Origin: a phage | Direction: 5' to 3' (one strand) | Sequence record: PZ379076.1 | DNA: 44,111 nt | In this document: piece by piece, positions 240-29,507 of the stretch | Numbering within the stretch: the first letter of the stretch is position 1 | How the letters are laid out: every line of letters begins with the position of its first letter | Notes under the pieces: generated by a model | What the model was told of the DNA's origin: nothing | Databases searched by the model: none | What the model saw: only the letters and a program-made list of their open reading frames with translations | Program-made: the position numbers and the translations under genes

Positions 240-268
240 CCCGGCCCTGACCCAGCCGGGATTTTTTT
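240..268 (+). terminator. rho-independent terminator after the lysis genes
   Basis: Stem cccggc (240-245) / gccggg (255-260), 9-nt loop, then a run of 7 T (262-268). Confidence 0.75.
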
Positions 269-17457: not shown

Positions 17458-17874
17458 ATGAAACTTTCTGATTTTTATTACGAAGCTGAAGCTGAAAAGG
17501 GTGCACGTATGCCGATACCATTAAAAGACGGTACCGATTCCGGGGAATGGCTTAATGTTGTTTCTCCTGAGGCAGACGTTGCCGTTAAGGCTATGCGCGC
17601 GTTCACCCTTGCATACCGGGCAGTGTTAGGGAAATTAAAACCGCTTCGTGATAAGTGCGAAGAGATGAAAGATTTCTCTGAATACAACCTGAAGATGGAA
17701 GACGCGGCGACGGACCTTAACCGTCAGTTAGCGGTTGAATTGGTTAACGGGTGGAGCCTTGACGACGAATTCAATAAAGAGAATCTGAACACACTCCTGA
17801 CGCAATATAAACGACTCGCGGAACTTGTTGTTGTGTTTCATAACGAACAACTGCACCAGCTACAGGAAAAGTAG
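17458..17874 (+). CDS. tail assembly chaperone (putative, G-like)
   Basis: 138 aa immediately upstream of the tape measure gene; AAAGGA SD. Confidence 0.5.
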   Translation: MKLSDFYYEAEAEKGARMPIPLKDGTDSGEWLNVVSPEADVAVKAMRAFTLAYRAVLGKLKPLRDKCEEMKDFSEYNLKMEDAATDLNRQLAVELVNGWSLDDEFNKENLNTLLTQYKRLAELVVVFHNEQLHQLQEK

Positions 17875-17879
17875 ACGCG

Positions 17880-18239
17880 TTGCTCCAGTTCGCCCGTTGG
17901 AACTTCATAACCCGCCACAAACGGCGGGAATTTGACAGTATCGCCGATGGGCATAAAGCCGCGCTAATTGCTATGGGGGTTATGCAAGACGCGCCGGACG
18001 CAACGCAGGCCACTGGGCCGGAATGCCCCCCTGAACTACTAACCACATTTGAGAAGTACAGGGAAATTAAATTCACCCGCCGAGTGGACGACGACGGCAT
18101 CAAGATGTACCCGCGCGAGCAATTACGATGGTCAGATTTAGTGGCGTACAGCACCGTTTCAGGCCAGAATATAGGGATGTTCGAATCTGACATCATCATG
18201 AGCTTAGACGCTATTTTCGAGGGTAGAAACGATGGCTGA
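17880..18239 (+). CDS. possible -1 frameshift extension of the tail assembly chaperone (T-like)
   Basis: -1 frame open from 17844, overlapping the last 10 codons of 17458-17874 which end ...CAG GAA AAG TAG; track ORF opens on TTG. Confidence 0.3.
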   Translation: MLQFARWNFITRHKRREFDSIADGHKAALIAMGVMQDAPDATQATGPECPPELLTTFEKYREIKFTRRVDDDGIKMYPREQLRWSDLVAYSTVSGQNIGMFESDIIMSLDAIFEGRNDG

Positions 18240-19647
18240 TGTAGCTAGTTTAGTCGTAAAAGTATCAGAGCAAGGCGCGAAAGCCACATCAGACCGTCTT
18301 GATAATCTTTCAAAGTCCGCAAAAGTAGCGGGGGCCGCCGTAGCAGGCCTCGCTTCTATCGTAGCGGCTACCGCGTATAAAGCCGCCCAAGAACTAGTTG
18401 ACTCACAGCGGCAACTGGACAAGATGTCCGCCAGTTTGAAGACCTTAACCGGAAGTACCCAAGGTGCTAAACAGGCGCTAAGTATCCTGCAAGATTTTGC
18501 ACGCGACACCCCATACGGACTGGAGCAGGCGGTGGAAGGCTTCCGTAAGCTGGTGGCCCTTGGCCTTACCCCATCCGAGGAGGCGTTGCGGTCCTACGGC
18601 AATACCGCATCGGCTATGGGTAAGGACCTTAATCAGATGATTGAGGCGGTAGCCGACGCCAGTACGTTTGAGTTCGAACGCCTCAAAGAATTCGGCATCA
18701 AAGCCAAGCAGAACAAAACCGACGTAGAGTTTACGTTCCAGGGAACGACAACCGTAGTTAAGAAAAGCGCTGCCGATATTGAGCAGTATTTACTTAACAT
18801 TGGTAACGTAAATTTTGCGGGGGCTATGGCTGACCAGGCCAACACCCTTAACGGCGCTATCGCGAGTGCCAGTGACTCATGGTCGCAGCTAAAAATGACG
18901 CTTGCCACCAGTCTTGATGTTGGCGCACTTGCTGAACCTATCAGGTATATCGATGACTTGATTCAGGAATTAAACGCGTCTGTTGCTTCCGGTGAATTAG
19001 CCGCTGAAATGCAGATGTGGGGGAACATCGCGTCGGAAGTAGGAAGCGCTATCGAGATGTCATTCGACGCTGCGTTTGGCTTTGTTGGCGATGCCATCAA
19101 CGGGCTTAATGAACTGTGGGATTTCAGCAGCAAGAGTATTACGGATAGCGGAGAACAAACGGCTACTACCATCGCTGAATCCGCCGCCGATGCGCTTGAC
19201 TTCATCGCGGAAGAGTTCACCGCGATGGAGAGATTCTTTGAAGATATGGTTAAAGGCGCGCAGGACGCGGGCCGTCTTGTACGAGCCGCTTTTACCCCCG
19301 GGGAATCAGTAGACGTAGCTAAAAATATCAACTTCCAGCTTGGCCTGGCTTTGGATACCCAGCGCGATGTCGCCGACGTTACGCGTAAAAGTTTCCGCGA
19401 ACAGGTAGAAGCTCAACAGGATATTGTAGCGTTAAAACGCGCGGCGTATGACATCGATAAGGAGTCCGCAAAAGCTGAGGGGTTAAACAAATTTAAGGTA
19501 ACCGGAACTGGCGGCGGTTCTGACGATGACGGGTCAGCCGCAAAAGCCGCTAAGAAAGCGGCGGACGCGTTCGAGCGCCAGAAAAAGCGGCGGAAGACTT
19601 CTACTATCAGTCAATCCATCTTAATGATGACGTATTTCAGAAAATAG
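18232..19647 (+). CDS. tail tape measure protein, N-terminal ~470 codons (frame broken near 19580)
   Basis: Long Ala/Gln/Glu-rich helical ORF after chaperone genes; ends 20 codons after an A5 run. Confidence 0.7.
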   Translation: MADVASLVVKVSEQGAKATSDRLDNLSKSAKVAGAAVAGLASIVAATAYKAAQELVDSQRQLDKMSASLKTLTGSTQGAKQALSILQDFARDTPYGLEQAVEGFRKLVALGLTPSEEALRSYGNTASAMGKDLNQMIEAVADASTFEFERLKEFGIKAKQNKTDVEFTFQGTTTVVKKSAADIEQYLLNIGNVNFAGAMADQANTLNGAIASASDSWSQLKMTLATSLDVGALAEPIRYIDDLIQELNASVASGELAAEMQMWGNIASEVGSAIEMSFDAAFGFVGDAINGLNELWDFSSKSITDSGEQTATTIAESAADALDFIAEEFTAMERFFEDMVKGAQDAGRLVRAAFTPGESVDVAKNINFQLGLALDTQRDVADVTRKSFREQVEAQQDIVALKRAAYDIDKESAKAEGLNKFKVTGTGGGSDDDGSAAKAAKKAADAFERQKKRRKTSTISQSILMMTYFRK

Positions 19648-20570
19648 AAGCTAACCAGGAAGAGCAACTGTCTAAGTTGCAGGACTTCTATAGCAATAAG
19701 CTTCTTAGCGACCAACAGTACGAAAACGCCAAGACGCAGATTATGTTATCCGCGGAACAGGCCCGCCAGGAAGAACTGGATAAGAAAAGGAAGGAGGCCC
19801 AGGAGAATCGGCAGAAAGGCGAGGATTTCATGGCTCAGATTATGGGTCAGAACGCCACCGAGCTTGAGCTTCTGGATATTCAGGAACAGCAGAAACTGGC
19901 AGTAGCCGATAAGTACCGTGAACAGGGTCTTATTAGCGAGAAGCAGTATCAGGCCACGCTTAACGCCATCAACGAGCAGTACGCAACCAAGCGAGCCGAT
20001 GCAACGGCAACCGCTTTCGGCAACATGGCGTCCAATATTGGGTCCGCGTTAGGGGAGGCATCCGGGGCTTATAAGGCGTTCGCTATTGTACAGGCCACGA
20101 TAGCCACGTACACCGCAGCTATTGAGGCGTACAAGTCAACGGCTGCTATCCCTGTTGTTGGCCCGTTCCTGGCCCCTGTAGCCGCTGCCGCTGCCGTTGG
20201 GGCTGGTATGGCGCAGATTTCCGCTATCAGGTCCGCGCGTGAACAGGGCGGTCAGTTATCAGCCGGGCAGGCTTCTACCATCGCTGAACGCGGTAAACCA
20301 GAAGTTATCATGCCCGCTGGCGCGTCGCGTGTACGCACAGCACAGCAGATGAAAGAAATTATGGGGCAAAACGGGTCTTCTTCCGGCCCGTCTAATGTTA
20401 CCATCGTAAACAACACGAGTTCTCAAATCGGCAACGTATCCACTGAGCAAGATGATGAAGGCCGTTTGCGAATCATCATCGAGGAGCAGGTGGCTGCCTC
20501 TTTGCAGAACAGCAACAGCAAGATTAGCAAGGCCCGCAAAGCCACAAGAAATGCGCCGGGGTTTAAATAA
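19554..20570 (+). CDS. tail tape measure protein, C-terminal part in the -1 frame
   Basis: -1 frame opens at 19554 and continues with the same composition to 20570 (track ORF 19677-20570); one extra A in the run at 19582-19586 would fuse both parts. Confidence 0.6.
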   Translation, partial: ESGGRVRAPEKAAEDFYYQSIHLNDDVFQKIEANQEEQLSKLQDFYSNKLLSDQQYENAKTQIMLSAEQARQEELDKKRKEAQENRQKGEDFMAQIMGQNATELELLDIQEQQKLAVADKYREQGLISEKQYQATLNAINEQYATKRADATATAFGNMASNIGSALGEASGAYKAFAIVQATIATYTAAIEAYKSTAAIPVVGPFLAPVAAAAAVGAGMAQISAIRSAREQGGQLSAGQASTIAERGKPEVIMPAGASRVRTAQQMKEIMGQNGSSSGPSNVTIVNNTSSQIGNVSTEQDDEGRLRIIIEEQVAASLQNSNSKISKARKATRNAPGFK

Positions 20571-22492: not shown

Positions 22493-22854
22493 ATATTAAC
22501 GACTACACGGGAATACCTTACGACTTTCGCAAACGTAATTGCTGGCATCACGTGCGCATTGTCCGCGCGGATGCCGGGTTAGAAACCCCAGCGTTCGACG
22601 TTGCAAGTCCAACGGCGATTAACGAAGCGTTCGACGAAGGACATCGCAACACGAAGGGACTTACAAAAATTGATAAGCCTGAAAACTTCTGTGCGGTGCT
22701 TATGGGGTATCGCCGCGGCGGTCGTATCGTGTGGCACGCAGGAGTTTACTTCGACGGGATGGTGAGCCATTGCGAGCTTGCTTCCCGTCAGGTACGGCTT
22801 GACAGGCTGGCGGATCTCAGAGACACGTACACGGAGATTGAATTTTGGCGATAA
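22489..22854 (+). CDS. tail assembly protein (gpK position, possible Cys/His peptidase)
   Basis: 121 aa; conserved Cys-His (NCWHH) near the N-terminus and His-Cys (SHCE) near the C-terminus; ATGA overlap. Confidence 0.4.
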   Translation: MNINDYTGIPYDFRKRNCWHHVRIVRADAGLETPAFDVASPTAINEAFDEGHRNTKGLTKIDKPENFCAVLMGYRRGGRIVWHAGVYFDGMVSHCELASRQVRLDRLADLRDTYTEIEFWR

Positions 22855-24332
22855 TCCTGCACTACACGCGAAACGCTGATGGCGCTTTCAACCGTACAAA
22901 ACACGTCGGGATGCCGATGGAGTTTGTCGTTAACCGTATCCCGGACGGCGTTCCGGTACGCGTCTATCTTGGCGAGATTGGTGATGATACTGATGTTACA
23001 GACGACTTCGACGCGCTCAAAGACGAGGACGCCGTGTACCACATTATTGAGGGCGCTGGCGGCGGCATTGGCGACGCCATCGGGAGTGTATTCAGTTTCA
23101 TCCTTAAGCCAATCGCCAAATTGTTCGGGCTAAACACAGCGGCTAACGCTAATTATTCCGCTACCAACAATCAGGCTACGTCGCCTAACAACAGTCTCAC
23201 CGACCGCTCAAACAAGCCACGACCTTATGAGCGTTCCTATGATATCTGCGGGACAGTGCAGACCATCCCCAATGACCTGATGCAGACATATAAGGTGTTT
23301 AATGCCGCGGGTGCGCTTATTGAATATGCGTACTATGACGCCGGTCGAGGGTATCTGCATATTGAGGAAGACGGTGTAACGGAGGCGGATACCCGAATCA
23401 GCGAGATAACTGGCTCGTCGGTGACGGTGTATCCCCCTTATACTTCGCCAAATAATACCAGCACCCCACAATTGCATATCGGCGACCCTATAGACCAGAA
23501 ATTGTACGTTACATTTAAAAACGCCGATGTCGATGGCGCTGTTCTTCCCGCACCTAATGACATCGCTATAGACGTGCAGGACTACACTGTCCAGCGGCAG
23601 GGAACAACAGGTGTTGTAATAGGCGATGACGCTGGTTTCGATGAGTTTTTGGCTGTCGGGGACCTGGCATATTTCGATAACGTATATGCGGACACAACTC
23701 CTGGGTCTTTAGGTAATGAGGTTAACTTAGACGGGAGGTACACTGTTCTTTCGGTTAGTGAAACCACCATTATTGTGGACGTCAGTACAAATCAATCAGT
23801 ATGGAACCAGCTAGGGGCGTCTGTGTGGTTTATAGGTGAAGAGGGTAACCATCTTATAGGCCCGGCGGACACTTACGCGGCTTCTCTCTCTGAATGGGCG
23901 TACATCACCCGCGGTACTGTCGACCGTGTTGTAGCCAATGTCGCCGCCAGCAACGGCATGTACAAATACAACGGCGACTATAACCGCGCTTCAGTGACAG
24001 TCGAACTGCAATACCAGATGGTAGATGAATTGAAACAGCCTGTAGGTGACATATTTACCGTACGAGGAACCGTAACAGGCCGGAACACGGATTACACAGG
24101 GATTACTCTTTACGGAAGTTTACCAACTGCTTCCAGATTCCGCGCCCGTATGCGTCGTGTTTCGGACACCGATAAAGATTTTGAAGGTACTGTTAGCGAC
24201 GAGGTTACTTTCACTAATCTGTATGGGCAGTCGCTGGACACAACCCCCACTACGGCAACCGTACTACCGTACACTGCGCCCGTAAACAAACCCCACGTGC
24301 AGCCGAGGTGTCCGAACCGGAACTGCGCATGA
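22845..24332 (+). CDS. tail tip protein with gpI-like N-terminal region
   Basis: 495 aa (TTG start in track); glycine-rich hydrophobic segment GAGGGIGDAIGSVFSFILKPIAKLFG as in lambda I-type proteins. Confidence 0.5.
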   Translation: MAIILHYTRNADGAFNRTKHVGMPMEFVVNRIPDGVPVRVYLGEIGDDTDVTDDFDALKDEDAVYHIIEGAGGGIGDAIGSVFSFILKPIAKLFGLNTAANANYSATNNQATSPNNSLTDRSNKPRPYERSYDICGTVQTIPNDLMQTYKVFNAAGALIEYAYYDAGRGYLHIEEDGVTEADTRISEITGSSVTVYPPYTSPNNTSTPQLHIGDPIDQKLYVTFKNADVDGAVLPAPNDIAIDVQDYTVQRQGTTGVVIGDDAGFDEFLAVGDLAYFDNVYADTTPGSLGNEVNLDGRYTVLSVSETTIIVDVSTNQSVWNQLGASVWFIGEEGNHLIGPADTYAASLSEWAYITRGTVDRVVANVAASNGMYKYNGDYNRASVTVELQYQMVDELKQPVGDIFTVRGTVTGRNTDYTGITLYGSLPTASRFRARMRRVSDTDKDFEGTVSDEVTFTNLYGQSLDTTPTTATVLPYTAPVNKPHVQPRCPNRNCA

Positions 24333-25411
24333 TTGCAACCGAGATGTGCTACAAATACTTAGGTAACGGCGTATTCGATACGGTAATGACACCGAACACT
24401 CAGGCCGTGCAGTCGCTAATCAGGCTGGCGCGTGACCCTGTGGTGGGTAATCTGGAACTGACAACGGCAAATATGGACAAGTTACTTGCCGTGCAGGAAG
24501 AAATTGAGTCGTATTTTGACAGTGAATTAGCCGGGCAGTTCTGCTACACATTCGACGACTACGACACAACCATGCAAGACATCGTTCAGACCATCGCGGA
24601 AGCCGTGTTTTGTACGGCATACCGTAAAGGTGCTGATATTATGCTGCGATTCGACCGTCCTGTTGCGGGGCCTGAGATGGTTTTCACCCACCGCAGCAAA
24701 ACGACCGGTACGGAGAAATGGACGCGCACGTTCAACGATTCGACAACCTACGATAGCCTGTCGTTCTCGTACATTGACCCGGATACAAACGTACAGGAGA
24801 CGATTTATATCCCGGAAGAACTCGGCGCGAACACCGAGGAGTACGAATCGAAGGGTGTACGTAACTATCAGCAAGCGTACTGGCTGGCGTGGCGTCGCTA
24901 CCAGCGCAACACGTTAAGTAAAGTTGTCGTAGAGTTCGAAGCTACCGAAGAAGGCGCTCTCGCTACTCCCGGCGGCGTAATCAGTGTGGTTAAAGGCTCG
25001 CGTATCGCGCCGCAGGATGGTTATGTTGTTGCCGTCAATGGCCTTACGCTGACGCTGTCTCAGCCTGTTACGTTTACTCCTGGTGATGACCATTCCATCA
25101 TCCTCAAGAAGCGCGACGGCTCTGTGCAGAGTATTTCTGTTATCAAAGGAAGCCACGACCGCGAAGTGATTATGCTCTCCGCGCCGGAGGAGGCAATCTA
25201 CACGGGGAATAGCGCACTAAAAACTGAGTTTTCATTCGGCAACGAAGCAAGGCATAATGCTCAGAAGATAGTTGTTTCTTCAATCGACCCCGGCGACGAC
25301 CGCACGGTCAAGATTACTGGTTACAACTATGACGACGGATTCTATAAATACGACGGCGTCGCGCCATACGGCAGCAGCTTCTCCGACGGATTCAGCAATG
25401 GTTTTAATTAA
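24329..25411 (+). CDS. tail tip / host specificity region protein (hypothetical)
   Basis: ATG 24329 overlaps the upstream TGA (ATGA); track ORF 24308-25411 opens on GTG. Confidence 0.5.
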   Translation: MIATEMCYKYLGNGVFDTVMTPNTQAVQSLIRLARDPVVGNLELTTANMDKLLAVQEEIESYFDSELAGQFCYTFDDYDTTMQDIVQTIAEAVFCTAYRKGADIMLRFDRPVAGPEMVFTHRSKTTGTEKWTRTFNDSTTYDSLSFSYIDPDTNVQETIYIPEELGANTEEYESKGVRNYQQAYWLAWRRYQRNTLSKVVVEFEATEEGALATPGGVISVVKGSRIAPQDGYVVAVNGLTLTLSQPVTFTPGDDHSIILKKRDGSVQSISVIKGSHDREVIMLSAPEEAIYTGNSALKTEFSFGNEARHNAQKIVVSSIDPGDDRTVKITGYNYDDGFYKYDGVAPYGSSFSDGFSNGFN

Positions 25412-27575: not shown

Positions 27576-28087
27576 CTGGTAAATTTCCTCGCAAGATACG
27601 TTATTTCTTCTTCACAAAGTTCATCAAGGTCGTTAGATACAAATCCTCTGGTGAATGTTTTGCTGAACTTTAATCCAGCTTTATCATTGTCGCCAGCGCA
27701 CACCCAGTCATACGGCAAAAGTGACATTTGCTGCCGTAGGTCTGTTGATATATTTGACCCCAGTGCGCTTACAGCATTGAACCCGCAATTCATCAAGGCT
27801 ACGGCTTTGAATATGCTTTCGGTAACAAATACCACCCCGCTTTCCGGCAAATACTCAAGCCCCCATAAACACGGCCTTGTTGTTCTGGTAAAGTACCGCG
27901 CGTCTTTAGGGTTTTTACAGTTCTTTTCGGCATGTGGTTTGTAATGCTGGTATCCGCGAAGCCTACCGTCAAACCCCCACAGGTAAAACGTAGCTACTCC
28001 AGGGGCTAAGACTACCTGGAGACGGTCAGCGTCAAACCCACGCGCCAGCAGATGAGCTTTAAGTAGAAACTCTTCGAAATCCATCAT
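27572..28087 (-). CDS. Toprim-domain protein (primase-like)
   Basis: 171 aa; ...VFVTESIFKAVALMNCGF...WVCAGDNDKAG gives the conserved Glu and DxD of the Toprim fold. Confidence 0.55.
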   Translation of the reverse strand: MMDFEEFLLKAHLLARGFDADRLQVVLAPGVATFYLWGFDGRLRGYQHYKPHAEKNCKNPKDARYFTRTTRPCLWGLEYLPESGVVFVTESIFKAVALMNCGFNAVSALGSNISTDLRQQMSLLPYDWVCAGDNDKAGLKFSKTFTRGFVSNDLDELCEEEITYLARKFTR

Positions 28088-29430
28088 TTCTTACCTCGTC
28101 TCTTCATGTAATTAAGCAACTCTTCCTGTACCGATTTCTTCTCGTCGGTACGCGCGGCGACAACCTCGTCCAGAGTGTCTTTAGCAACGATGTGATAAAG
28201 GAACACCGGGCGCTCGTGTCCTGCTTGCTTCTGGCGTACCGGGCCTATACGCTCGACAACCTGCAAATAGTGCTCAAGGTTCCAGCCTTGCGAGATGAAC
28301 GCCAGATGATGTCCGCCGTCCTGTAAATTCAAACCATGACCGGCTGACGCAGGATGTACGCATAGGATTTCGATTTCACCGCGGTTCCACGCTTCCATCT
28401 GCTTATTACCCTTAGCGCCTTTTGCAAACGCCTGGGCCTGCGGGAATCGCTTAAGGATGCGCTCCAGTTCGTGCTTAAACTGATAGGCCACCAGTAGCGG
28501 CGCTCCCTGTAACTCCTCCACAATGGACTCGAGCGCATCCAGTTTCGTGTCGTGCACTTTCTCCCAGTCTTTGGTCGCTTCGCCATCCGGCCCTGACACA
28601 TACACGGCACCAGATGCAATCTGCAAGCACTTTGAGGTCTTCGCCGCAGCGTTAGCCGCTTCAACTTCCCCGCTCTCCAGTTCTGCGAATAACTTCTCCT
28701 CCATATCTATGTACGCCTGACGCGCTTTCTTCGGCAGGTCTATTTCCACCGGTACGATAACAGGCGCTTCACAACCAAACCACTCGGCAGGGTCTATGGT
28801 CAGGCTGATGTCTTTCATCTTCTGATGAATCTCATTATCCGCACCCGGTCGTGCATGATACTCGCGGGCCATAGCCGATTTACCTTTCTGTACCGAGTTA
28901 AACCAGCGGTCGGTGAATGCTGTGTACGAAGAGCCGAGGCGCTCGCCAGCGTCGATAAACCAGTTCTGACCCCACAAGTCTTTGAGGCCGTTTGGTGACG
29001 GTGTGCCTGTCAGGTTGATGAAACGCTTAACCTTTCCGAACGCAACCTTGCTGAGCGCCTTTGCCCGCTTGCTACCACCCGAACGGCTGCGGAACGATTT
29101 AAGCTTCGTGCTTTCATCGGCAACGATAACCGTAAAAGGCCAGTCGTCTTTGCCGTAGTAGTCAATTAGCCACTCGATAACTTCGTAGTTAGTGCACACC
29201 ACGTTAGCATCTGACTCCAGCGCTGCGATGCGGCGCTTCTCCGAACCAGTTGCATCTACGACACGCAGACAAGGGAATTGCCATTTCTCTTGTTCAGCGG
29301 GCCACGTACCGGACGCAACACGTAACGGGGCAAGGATTAACACGCGGTCCTCTTCCGTAAGCTGCCCGTTGCGGAACAGGCGGTTGAGCACCCACATAGT
29401 GGAGGAGGTTTTACCTCCCCCATTCCGCAC
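28084..29430 (-). CDS. SNF2/SF2-family helicase, as called in this frame (N-terminus displaced by a frameshift)
   Basis: 448 aa; GGGKTS (motif I), VIVADESTKLK (DExx), LTGTPSPN (motif III), late HPASAGHGLNLQ; track ORF starts on GTG just downstream of a C5/G5 run. Confidence 0.8.
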   Translation of the reverse strand: MRNGGGKTSSTMWVLNRLFRNGQLTEEDRVLILAPLRVASGTWPAEQEKWQFPCLRVVDATGSEKRRIAALESDANVVCTNYEVIEWLIDYYGKDDWPFTVIVADESTKLKSFRSRSGGSKRAKALSKVAFGKVKRFINLTGTPSPNGLKDLWGQNWFIDAGERLGSSYTAFTDRWFNSVQKGKSAMAREYHARPGADNEIHQKMKDISLTIDPAEWFGCEAPVIVPVEIDLPKKARQAYIDMEEKLFAELESGEVEAANAAAKTSKCLQIASGAVYVSGPDGEATKDWEKVHDTKLDALESIVEELQGAPLLVAYQFKHELERILKRFPQAQAFAKGAKGNKQMEAWNRGEIEILCVHPASAGHGLNLQDGGHHLAFISQGWNLEHYLQVVERIGPVRQKQAGHERPVFLYHIVAKDTLDEVVAARTDEKKSVQEELLNYMKRRGKK

Positions 29431-29507
29431 CAGATATTACAGCGCGGGTGTTGCAGCATGAACGAAGTCATGAGCTTCTGGTACTCTCGACGGATAAATT
29501 TAGACAT
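29337..29507 (-). pseudogene. N-terminal fragment of the same helicase in the other frame
   Basis: ATG 29507, translation MSKFIRREYQKLMTSFMLQHPRCNIWCGMG... carries the Q-motif (REYQ) and the start of the P-loop; frames swap at the run 29417-29421. Confidence 0.55.

What the first reader, a model, noticed from the sequence alone, without database searches (positions are those of the whole stretch)
19554..19647. Tape measure gene changes frame at an A5 run (G AAA AAG)
The tape measure ORF stops at 19645-19647, but the -1 frame is open from 19554 and continues with matching composition to 20570. The overlap contains cag-aaa-aag (19579-19587); one extra A would read straight through (...ERQKKAAEDFYYQ...). 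G-AAA-AAG also resembles the AAA-AAG type of bacterial -1 slippery sites, so programmed frameshifting producing two tape-measure lengths cannot be excluded, although no obvious stimulatory hairpin follows.
Basis: seen in the sequence. Interest (0 to 1): 0.5.

Follow-up and report, generated by a model that had tools for sequence, protein, structure and literature searches.

The report
One-base sequencing error splits tape-measure gene
The phage tail tape-measure gene looks split in two only because one A is missing from a run of six, and two other essential genes in this sequence are broken the same way, so this is almost certainly a sequencing error and not a programmed frameshift.

Summary
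ORF 18232..19647 (471 aa) stops at 19645-47, and the -1 frame is open from 19554 to 20570. Both pieces are halves of one tape measure protein (TMP).

The window is a Kagunavirus-like E. coli siphophage genome. All 17 GenBank relatives and all 12 IMG/VR relatives compared at this site have one more base here. Every relative whose annotation I read has a single 2340-nt, 779-aa TMP gene. The closest haplotype (IMG/VR contig L017) has 3 mismatches over about 1.7 kb spanning the site and reads CAG AAA AAA GCG, so the window has A6 shortened to A5.

The deletion allele was found in no public collection. The two Lys codons vary synonymously among relatives, and no hairpin follows the site.

The decisive point is that the window carries two more private one-base homopolymer contractions in essential genes: C6 to C5 in the large tail protein at 24244-48, and G6 to G5 in the helicase Walker A motif at 29417-21. 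It also has T8 to T7 in a spacer. Three of seven runs of 6 or more are shortened, and none of 52 runs of 5.

In contrast, the real -1 site in the tail chaperone genes just upstream (CAG GAA AAG TAG) is invariant in 13 relatives.

Verdict: homopolymer undercalling artefact. Low interest.

The parts
18232..19647 (+). Tape measure gene, N-terminal part as written (471 aa; the last 19 residues, RRKTSTISQSILMMTYFRK, are out-of-frame read-through)
   Evidence: PHROG 1538 positions 1-450 of 811, E=5e-95. Pfam TMP_3 PF20155 at 37.6 bits, below the 41-bit cut-off.
19582..19586 (+). A5 run where one base is missing. It is A6 in the closest haplotypes L017, L011 and L012, and A5+GG in the phiEc4/Golestan type.
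   Evidence: Alignment A1; site sequences of 17 loci; mismatch map against L017.
19587..20570 (+). Tape measure gene, C-terminal part in the -1 frame (open from 19554), ending at the stop 20568-70
   Evidence: PHROG 1538 positions 435-811 of 811, E=3e-104. 54 synonymous against 2 non-synonymous codon differences from L017.
17458..17874 (+). Tail assembly chaperone (G-like) ORF immediately upstream of the TMP gene
   Evidence: Pfam Phage_TAC_4 at 32.8 bits (cut-off 21.1). PHROG 15027 positions 1-138 of 259.
17844..18239 (+). The -1 frame extension of the chaperone (T-like part). The shift must occur within 17844-17871.
   Evidence: Pfam Phage_TAC_18 at 66.7 bits. PHROG 15027 positions 136-259 of 259. 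Frames read.
17863..17874 (+). CAG GAA AAG TAG, the likely genuine -1 slip site (A_AAG next to the stop codon) of the chaperone pair. Used here as an internal control.
   Evidence: Identical in all 13 relatives that align there, including ones whose TMP DNA is only about 75% identical.
24244..24248 (+). C5 run, C6 in relatives. It splits the large tail protein into ORFs 22845..24332 and 24308..25411.
   Evidence: All 9 GenBank matches span 102 nt for the 101-nt query. Adding one C gives a single ORF.
29417..29421 (-). G5 run on the coding strand, G6 in relatives, inside the helicase Walker A codons. It puts the first 30 codons out of frame with the rest of the gene.
   Evidence: Repair gives 474 aa with ...CGMGGGKTSS... 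and 1 aa difference from SHAK7858. Full-length GenBank matches span one base more than the query.
262..268 (+). T7 run, T8 in both relatives compared. It lies in a spacer between genes.
   Evidence: Position relative to SHAK7858 genes.

Best explanation
The window is a Kagunavirus-like (Guernseyvirinae) E. coli siphophage genome. Its tape measure gene is one ordinary 2340-nt, 779-aa gene. In this record an A6 run (CAG AAA AAA GCG) was written as A5, which throws the last 327 codons into the -1 frame.

The most likely cause is length-dependent homopolymer undercalling during sequencing or assembly. The same record has lost one base from three other runs of 6 or more, and two of those losses break other essential genes.

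Shown: the missing base, its privacy to this record, the intact state of relatives, and the parallel contractions. Inferred: that the cause is technical and not biological, because no reads are available.
For: 1. Relatives are in frame. 26 listed GenBank relatives that align end to end span 2340 nt against the window's 2339. The gene is annotated as one TMP CDS in phiEc4, Golestan, 22664BS2 and SHAK7858. All 17 GenBank hits to a 101-nt query across the site span 102 nt. 12 IMG/VR contigs carry an in-frame version.

2. The nearest haplotype is L017. It has only 3 mismatches to the window between 18232 and about 19950, and it has A6 at the site.

3. The exact deletion allele is absent from IMG/VR, from 185,579 GTDB genomes and from the JGI metagenomes.

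4. The repaired protein differs from L017 at 3 of 779 residues. Downstream of the break there are 54 synonymous and 2 non-synonymous codon differences, mostly at third positions of the -1 frame.

5. Other private one-base losses follow the same pattern:
- C6 to C5 in the tail protein.
- G6 to G5 in the helicase Walker A motif. Repair restores GMGGGKTS and a 474-aa protein 1 aa different from SHAK7858.
- T8 to T7 in a spacer.
- Against SHAK7858, 3 of 7 flank-conserved runs of 6 or more are one shorter in the window. None of 52 runs of 5 is shortened, and no run is longer.

6. There is no frameshift signal. The downstream fold has z=+0.61. The Lys-Lys codons appear as AAAAAG, AAAAAA or AAGAAA in relatives.
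Against: There are no reads, quality values or platform information, so a real mutation cannot be formally excluded.

A -1 slip of tRNA-Lys on A_AAG at 19584-87 would give exactly the wild-type sequence QKKAAED, so leaky expression is conceivable.

Four of the seven flank-conserved runs of 6 or more keep the relative's length, so the undercalling, if that is the cause, is not uniform.
Confidence: 0.85

Rival explanations
1. The deletion is real in the sequenced stock, either as a recent mutation or as a defective subpopulation. Enough full-length TMP is made by unprogrammed -1 slippage. Peptidyl- or aminoacyl-tRNA-Lys would re-pair from AAG (19585-87) to AAA (19584-86), possibly helped by the two rare CGG codons that follow in the 0 frame. 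The product would be the wild-type sequence.
For: The slip would restore QKKAAED exactly. A_AAG is the most shift-prone tetramer in E. coli (PMC4066793). Only a few TMP copies are needed per virion (general knowledge). The break is evolutionarily very young, which fits a fresh mutation as well as it fits an error.
Against: Without a stimulator, tetramer motifs give about 0.15% frameshifting against a 0.11% background. True heptamers reach at most about 10 times a 0.055% background (PMC4066793). No stimulator is present here. The phage would also have to survive frame breaks in the tail protein and in the helicase Walker A at the same time. The T8 to T7 change in a spacer fits a technical pattern, not selection.
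Confidence: 0.1
2. Evolved programmed -1 ribosomal frameshifting at G_AAA_AAG produces two tape measure products, 471 aa and 779 aa, in a set ratio.
For: An AAA_AAG Lys-Lys motif sits in the 94-nt overlap, and the frameshift product would be a full TMP.
Against: None of the 17 GenBank or 12 IMG/VR relatives compared at the site shares the two-frame layout. The motif is not conserved: it varies synonymously, and AAGAAA in several relatives has no run at all. GAA is not an XXX triplet, so the heptamer rule is not met. There is no downstream structure, and no convincing Shine-Dalgarno-like element in the 20 nt upstream (read). The genuine chaperone slip site 1.7 kb upstream is invariant across the same relatives, which shows what conservation of a real site looks like in this group.
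Confidence: 0.02
3. A truly split tape measure: the two halves are made as separate polypeptides and work together.
For: A TTG at 19677 opens a 297-aa ORF.
Against: There is no ATG or GTG in the -1 frame between 19554 and 19677. No Shine-Dalgarno sequence precedes the TTG (caactgtctaagTTG). No relative is split. The break is far too recent for a new gene arrangement to have been selected.
Confidence: 0.01

Closest known systems
Homopolymer-length undercalls in assembled genomes (flow-based or nanopore sequencing) that create false frameshifts
   Same: A single-base loss inside a run of 6 or more. It is private to one record. Several such losses sit in the same record, all in the same direction and only in the longer runs. 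They break otherwise well-conserved essential genes.
   Different: The platform and reads are unknown, so the technical origin is inferred from the pattern and not demonstrated.
E. coli dnaX and IS911/IS3-type programmed -1 frameshifting (A_AAA_AAG with flanking stimulators)
   Same: It contains AAA_AAG in the 0 frame, and the shift direction is -1.
   Different: The first base is G, so the site is not X_XXZ_ZZN. There is no downstream hairpin or pseudoknot and no clear upstream SD-like element. It is not conserved in relatives. Motifs without stimulators shift at about background level (PMC4066793).
Conserved -1 frameshift of tail assembly chaperone genes (lambda G/GT type), upstream of tape measure genes
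   Same: It belongs to the same gene cluster and uses the same A_AAG-type slip. It is present in this window at 17863-17874, with the T-like part in the -1 frame.
   Different: That site is in the chaperone gene, not the TMP gene. It is invariant in 13 relatives, whereas the TMP site is variable and in frame everywhere else.
Tail length tape measure proteins of Guernseyvirinae (PHROG 1538; for example Golestan YP_009620105, 779 aa)
   Same: Both halves match the family end to end. The repaired protein is 779 aa and the gene order is identical.
   Different: Only the one-base frame break in this record.

Membership tests
Tail length tape measure protein (PHROG 1538 / Pfam TMP_3) | Sequence match across the whole family profile | tested here: met
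   The N part matches profile positions 1-450 (E=5e-95) and the C part matches 435-811 (E=3e-104) of one 811-position PHROG. Pfam TMP_3 scores 37.6 bits, just under its 41-bit cut-off.
Tail length tape measure protein (PHROG 1538 / Pfam TMP_3) | Position directly downstream of the frameshifted tail-chaperone pair and upstream of the tail tip genes | tested here: met
   Chaperone ORFs lie at 17458-18239. Gene order is the same as in Golestan, phiEc4 and SHAK7858.
Tail length tape measure protein (PHROG 1538 / Pfam TMP_3) | One uninterrupted reading frame | tested here: not met
   The frame is broken at 19582-87 as written. It becomes a single 779-aa ORF after adding one base.
Programmed -1 ribosomal frameshift site (bacterial) | X_XXZ_ZZN heptamer in the 0 frame | tested here: not met
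   The 0-frame reading is CA G_AAA_AAG. The triplet after the shift would be GAA, not XXX, so only the A_AAG tetramer qualifies (motif definition from PMC4066793).
Programmed -1 ribosomal frameshift site (bacterial) | Stimulatory RNA structure a few nucleotides downstream, or an SD-like element upstream | tested here: not met
   The 19588-19660 fold gives -9 kcal/mol and z=+0.61; 140 of 200 shuffles fold at least as well. The upstream 20 nt hold no GGAG or AGGAG (read).
Programmed -1 ribosomal frameshift site (bacterial) | Conservation of the two-frame layout and of the slippery motif in relatives | tested here: not met
   17 of 17 GenBank and 12 of 12 IMG/VR relatives are in frame. The motif varies as AAAAAG, AAAAAA and AAGAAA.
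Programmed -1 ribosomal frameshift site (bacterial) | Both products detectable | not testable with these tools
   This needs virion mass spectrometry or a reporter assay.
Homopolymer sequencing or assembly error | The indel lies in a mononucleotide run and is absent from the closest relatives | tested here: met
   A6 in L017, L011 and L012 (97.5-98.5% identical over the gene; 3 mismatches in the about 1.7 kb spanning the site) against A5 in the window.
Homopolymer sequencing or assembly error | Several such indels in one record, in one direction and dependent on run length | tested here: met
   Four contractions: T8 to T7, A6 to A5 and two of C6 to C5. There are no expansions. 3 of 7 runs of 6 or more are shortened against 0 of 52 runs of 5.
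Homopolymer sequencing or assembly error | Read-level disagreement at the site | not testable with these tools
   No reads or quality values are available. The window's proteins are not in the public protein collection.

The most novel reading that the evidence does not exclude
The A5 allele is real. The phage stays viable because ribosomes slip -1 on A_AAG just before two rare CGG codons and so correct the indel during translation, yielding wild-type TMP. The same kind of slip on C_CCC would rescue the tail protein, and a slip on the G run would rescue the helicase. That would make this a phage carrying three frame-broken essential genes that all depend on slippage.
Probability: 0.04. Interest if true: 0.45.

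Novelty: not a real feature. Interest (0 to 1): 0.05.

Why it matters
The main value is for annotation. The TMP (18232..20570), the large tail protein (about 22911..25411) and the helicase (28084..29507, minus strand) in this record should each be treated as one gene with a one-base correction. They should not be annotated as split genes, pseudogenes or recoding events.

The case also gives a practical test for separating real recoding sites from artefacts. In the same window the true chaperone slip site is invariant across relatives. The apparent TMP site is private to this record, varies synonymously in relatives, and is accompanied by identical defects elsewhere in the genome.

If the deletions were real, the phage would be an unusual example of multiple essential genes rescued by unprogrammed slippage. 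Nothing here favours that.

Tried and rejected
- From the first four-sequence alignment I concluded that the missing base was a G of 'GG' following an unchanged A5. I revised this after IMG/VR contigs gave a much closer haplotype with A6+G. Either insertion gives the same protein.
- Exact-pattern scans for the deletion allele in viral contigs, genome contigs and metagenome contigs found nothing.
- Exact-sequence look-ups found nothing for the truncated TMP, the downstream ORF, the shortened helicase, the repaired TMP or two intact neighbouring proteins. The source genome is therefore not represented in that collection, and no independent assembly could be compared.
- A literature search for Kagunavirus + tape measure + frameshift returned no paper. 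A search for tape measure + homopolymer + sequencing error returned one paper that did not look relevant from its title and that I did not read.
- The downstream RNA fold showed no structure beyond chance.
- Script problems: one search failed because of the file layout, and the helicase repair used the wrong start coordinate. Both were corrected.
- Transcriptional slippage was considered and rejected from general knowledge: a run of 5 A is well below the roughly 8-9 needed for appreciable RNA polymerase slippage. This was not tested here.

Full report
**1. Observation**

- ORF 18232..19647 (ATG, 471 aa) ends at TAG 19645-47.
- The -1 frame has its last stop at 19551-53 and is open from 19554 to the stop at 20568-70.
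- CAG AAA AAG lies at 19579-19587, with the A5 run at 19582-86.
- Adding one base at the run yields a 779-aa protein reading ...AFERQKKAAEDFYYQ....

The second frame is not a chance ORF. Against PHROGs, the upstream piece matches positions 1-450 and the downstream piece positions 435-811 of one 811-position family, phrog_1538 'tail length tape measure protein'. The E-values are 5e-95 and 3e-104. Pfam TMP_3 hits the N-terminal part at 37.6 bits, below its 41-bit cut-off.

**2. What the window is**

Megablast against GenBank phages places the window among Kagunavirus (Guernseyvirinae) E. coli siphophages. Examples are phiEc3, phiEc4, Golestan, SHAK7858 and 22664BS2, at about 92-95% identity over most of the genome. 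No record is identical to the window.

In the relatives read in detail, the gene is a single 2340-nt CDS annotated as tape measure protein. All 26 listed relatives that align end to end span 2340 nt for the window's 2339.

**3. Which base is missing**

In a first alignment, phiEc4 and Golestan read CAG AAA AAG GCG GCG and the window reads CAG AAA AAG -CG GCG, which suggested a lost G.

A degenerate-pattern scan of IMG/VR then returned 12 in-frame contigs. Three of them (L017, L011, L012) are much closer to the window, at 97.5-98.5% over the gene. They read CAG AAA AAA GCG GCG, which is A6.

The mismatch map shows only three differences between the window and L017 from 18232 to about 19950. L017 is therefore effectively the same haplotype around the site, and the window is that haplotype with A6 shortened to A5. 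Adding a G gives the same protein.

**4. Is the two-frame layout shared or conserved?**

It is not.
- A 101-nt query across the site finds 17 GenBank records, all spanning 102 nt.
- The 12 IMG/VR contigs are all in frame.
- The exact deletion allele occurs nowhere in IMG/VR, the GTDB species genomes or the JGI metagenomes.
- The two lysine codons drift synonymously among relatives as AAA AAG, AAA AAA and AAG AAA. A selected slippery site would not do this.

**5. Age of the break**

The repaired protein differs from the L017 protein at 3 of 779 residues. Downstream of the break there are 54 synonymous and 2 non-synonymous codon differences, almost all at third positions of the -1 frame. The C-terminal half has therefore evolved as part of the TMP until essentially the present. 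The break is either extremely recent or not biological.

**6. The decisive context: the same defect elsewhere in the window**

I compared the whole window by blastn with SHAK7858 and 22664BS2 and listed every gap whose length is not a multiple of three. In well-conserved DNA the window has four single-base losses, and all are in homopolymers:
- T8 to T7 at 262-268, in a spacer.
- The TMP site.
- C6 to C5 at 24244-48.
- C6 to C5 at 29417-21 on the + strand, which is G6 to G5 on the coding strand.

The 24244-48 loss splits the large tail protein, a single CDS of about 2.5 kb in relatives, into ORFs 22845..24332 and 24308..25411. Adding one C restores one ORF with 21 aa differences from SHAK7858.

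The 29417-21 loss lies inside the helicase Walker A codons. As written, the N-terminus reads ...CGMGEVKPPP and soon hits a stop. With G6 it reads ...CGMGGGKTSSTM, giving a 474-aa protein 1 aa different from SHAK7858.

Both losses are private to the window. All 9 full-length GenBank matches at the tail-protein site, and all the full-length matches at the helicase site, are one base longer than the query.

Against SHAK7858, 3 of the 7 flank-conserved runs of 6 or more are one base shorter in the window. None of 52 runs of 5 is shortened, and no run is longer.

Three essential genes (tape measure, tail protein, replicative helicase P-loop) broken at once in a phage that was propagated for sequencing is implausible biologically. 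One-directional, length-dependent homopolymer loss is the classic signature of undercalling.

**7. Test of the programmed-frameshift reading**

- G_AAA_AAG is not an X_XXZ_ZZN heptamer. Only the A_AAG tetramer is present.
- The 73 nt downstream have no structure beyond chance (-9 kcal/mol; z=+0.61).
- I see no SD-like element in the 20 nt upstream.
- Sharma et al. 2014 (PMC4066793) measured all such motifs in E. coli. Tetramers without a stimulator gave 0.147% against a 0.112% background, and A_AAG reached 5.6% only with the IS3 pseudoknot. Heptamers without stimulators were at most about 10 times a 0.055% background. This site would therefore yield a fraction of a percent at best.

The window has an internal positive control. 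The tail chaperone pair just upstream (17458..17874, Phage_TAC_4, and its -1 extension 17844..18239, Phage_TAC_18) together covers phrog_15027. Its -1 window of 17844-17871 contains CAG GAA AAG TAG, and that sequence is identical in all 13 relatives aligned, including ones whose TMP DNA is only about 75% identical. That is what a real recoding site looks like in this group. The TMP site looks nothing like it.

**8. Rivals**

- A real mutation rescued by unprogrammed slippage cannot be excluded without reads. A -1 re-pairing of tRNA-Lys from AAG to AAA would give exactly the wild-type QKKAAED, and the two following 0-frame codons are CGG CGG, which are rare in E. coli (my own knowledge). The expected efficiency is very low, and the phage would also need rescue at two other genes. 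I give this about 0.10.
- Evolved programmed frameshifting: about 0.02.
- A functional split gene: about 0.01. The only start-like codon in the overlap region is TTG 19677, and it has no SD.

**9. Verdict**

The feature is a one-base homopolymer artefact in an ordinary tape measure gene, with confidence about 0.85. Interest is low. The useful outcome is that three genes in this record need a one-base correction, and that the genuine chaperone frameshift sits at 17863-17874.

Noticed in passing
window 24244-24248 (ORFs 22845..24332 and 24308..25411): The large tail protein, one CDS of about 2.5 kb in relatives, is split by a private C6 to C5 contraction. Adding one C restores a single ORF.
   Followed up: yes
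window 29417-29421, minus-strand gene 28084..29507: The DNA helicase is frame-broken inside its Walker A codons by a private G6 to G5 contraction. Repair restores ...GMGGGKTS... and a 474-aa protein 1 aa different from SHAK7858.
   Followed up: yes
window 262-268: A T7 run where both compared relatives have T8. It lies between genes. This is the same kind of one-base loss.
   Followed up: partly
window 17844-17874: This is the likely genuine -1 frameshift of the tail assembly chaperone pair. The slip site CAG GAA AAG TAG (A_AAG next to the stop codon) is invariant in 13 relatives. The fused product matches phrog_15027 over its full length. The efficiency and the exact slip codon were not tested.
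   Followed up: partly
window 18232-20570 compared with L017 (IMG/VR 3300045988_002593): There is a mosaic boundary inside the TMP gene. The window has 3 mismatches to L017 up to about 19950, then 55 mismatches in the last 620 nt, nearly all synonymous. This suggests a recombination junction about 370 nt downstream of the frame break and unrelated to it.
   Followed up: partly
L004 (OR594183.1, SHAK7858): This GenBank record is named vB_EcoM and filed under Autographiviridae; Kayfunavirus. Its sequence is collinear with Kagunavirus siphophages and about 95% identical to this window, so the taxonomy line appears to be wrong.
   Followed up: no
window 33272: A one-base difference against SHAK7858 only (CCGGG-AGC against CCGGGAAGC). 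It was not compared with other relatives and its coding status was not checked.
   Followed up: no
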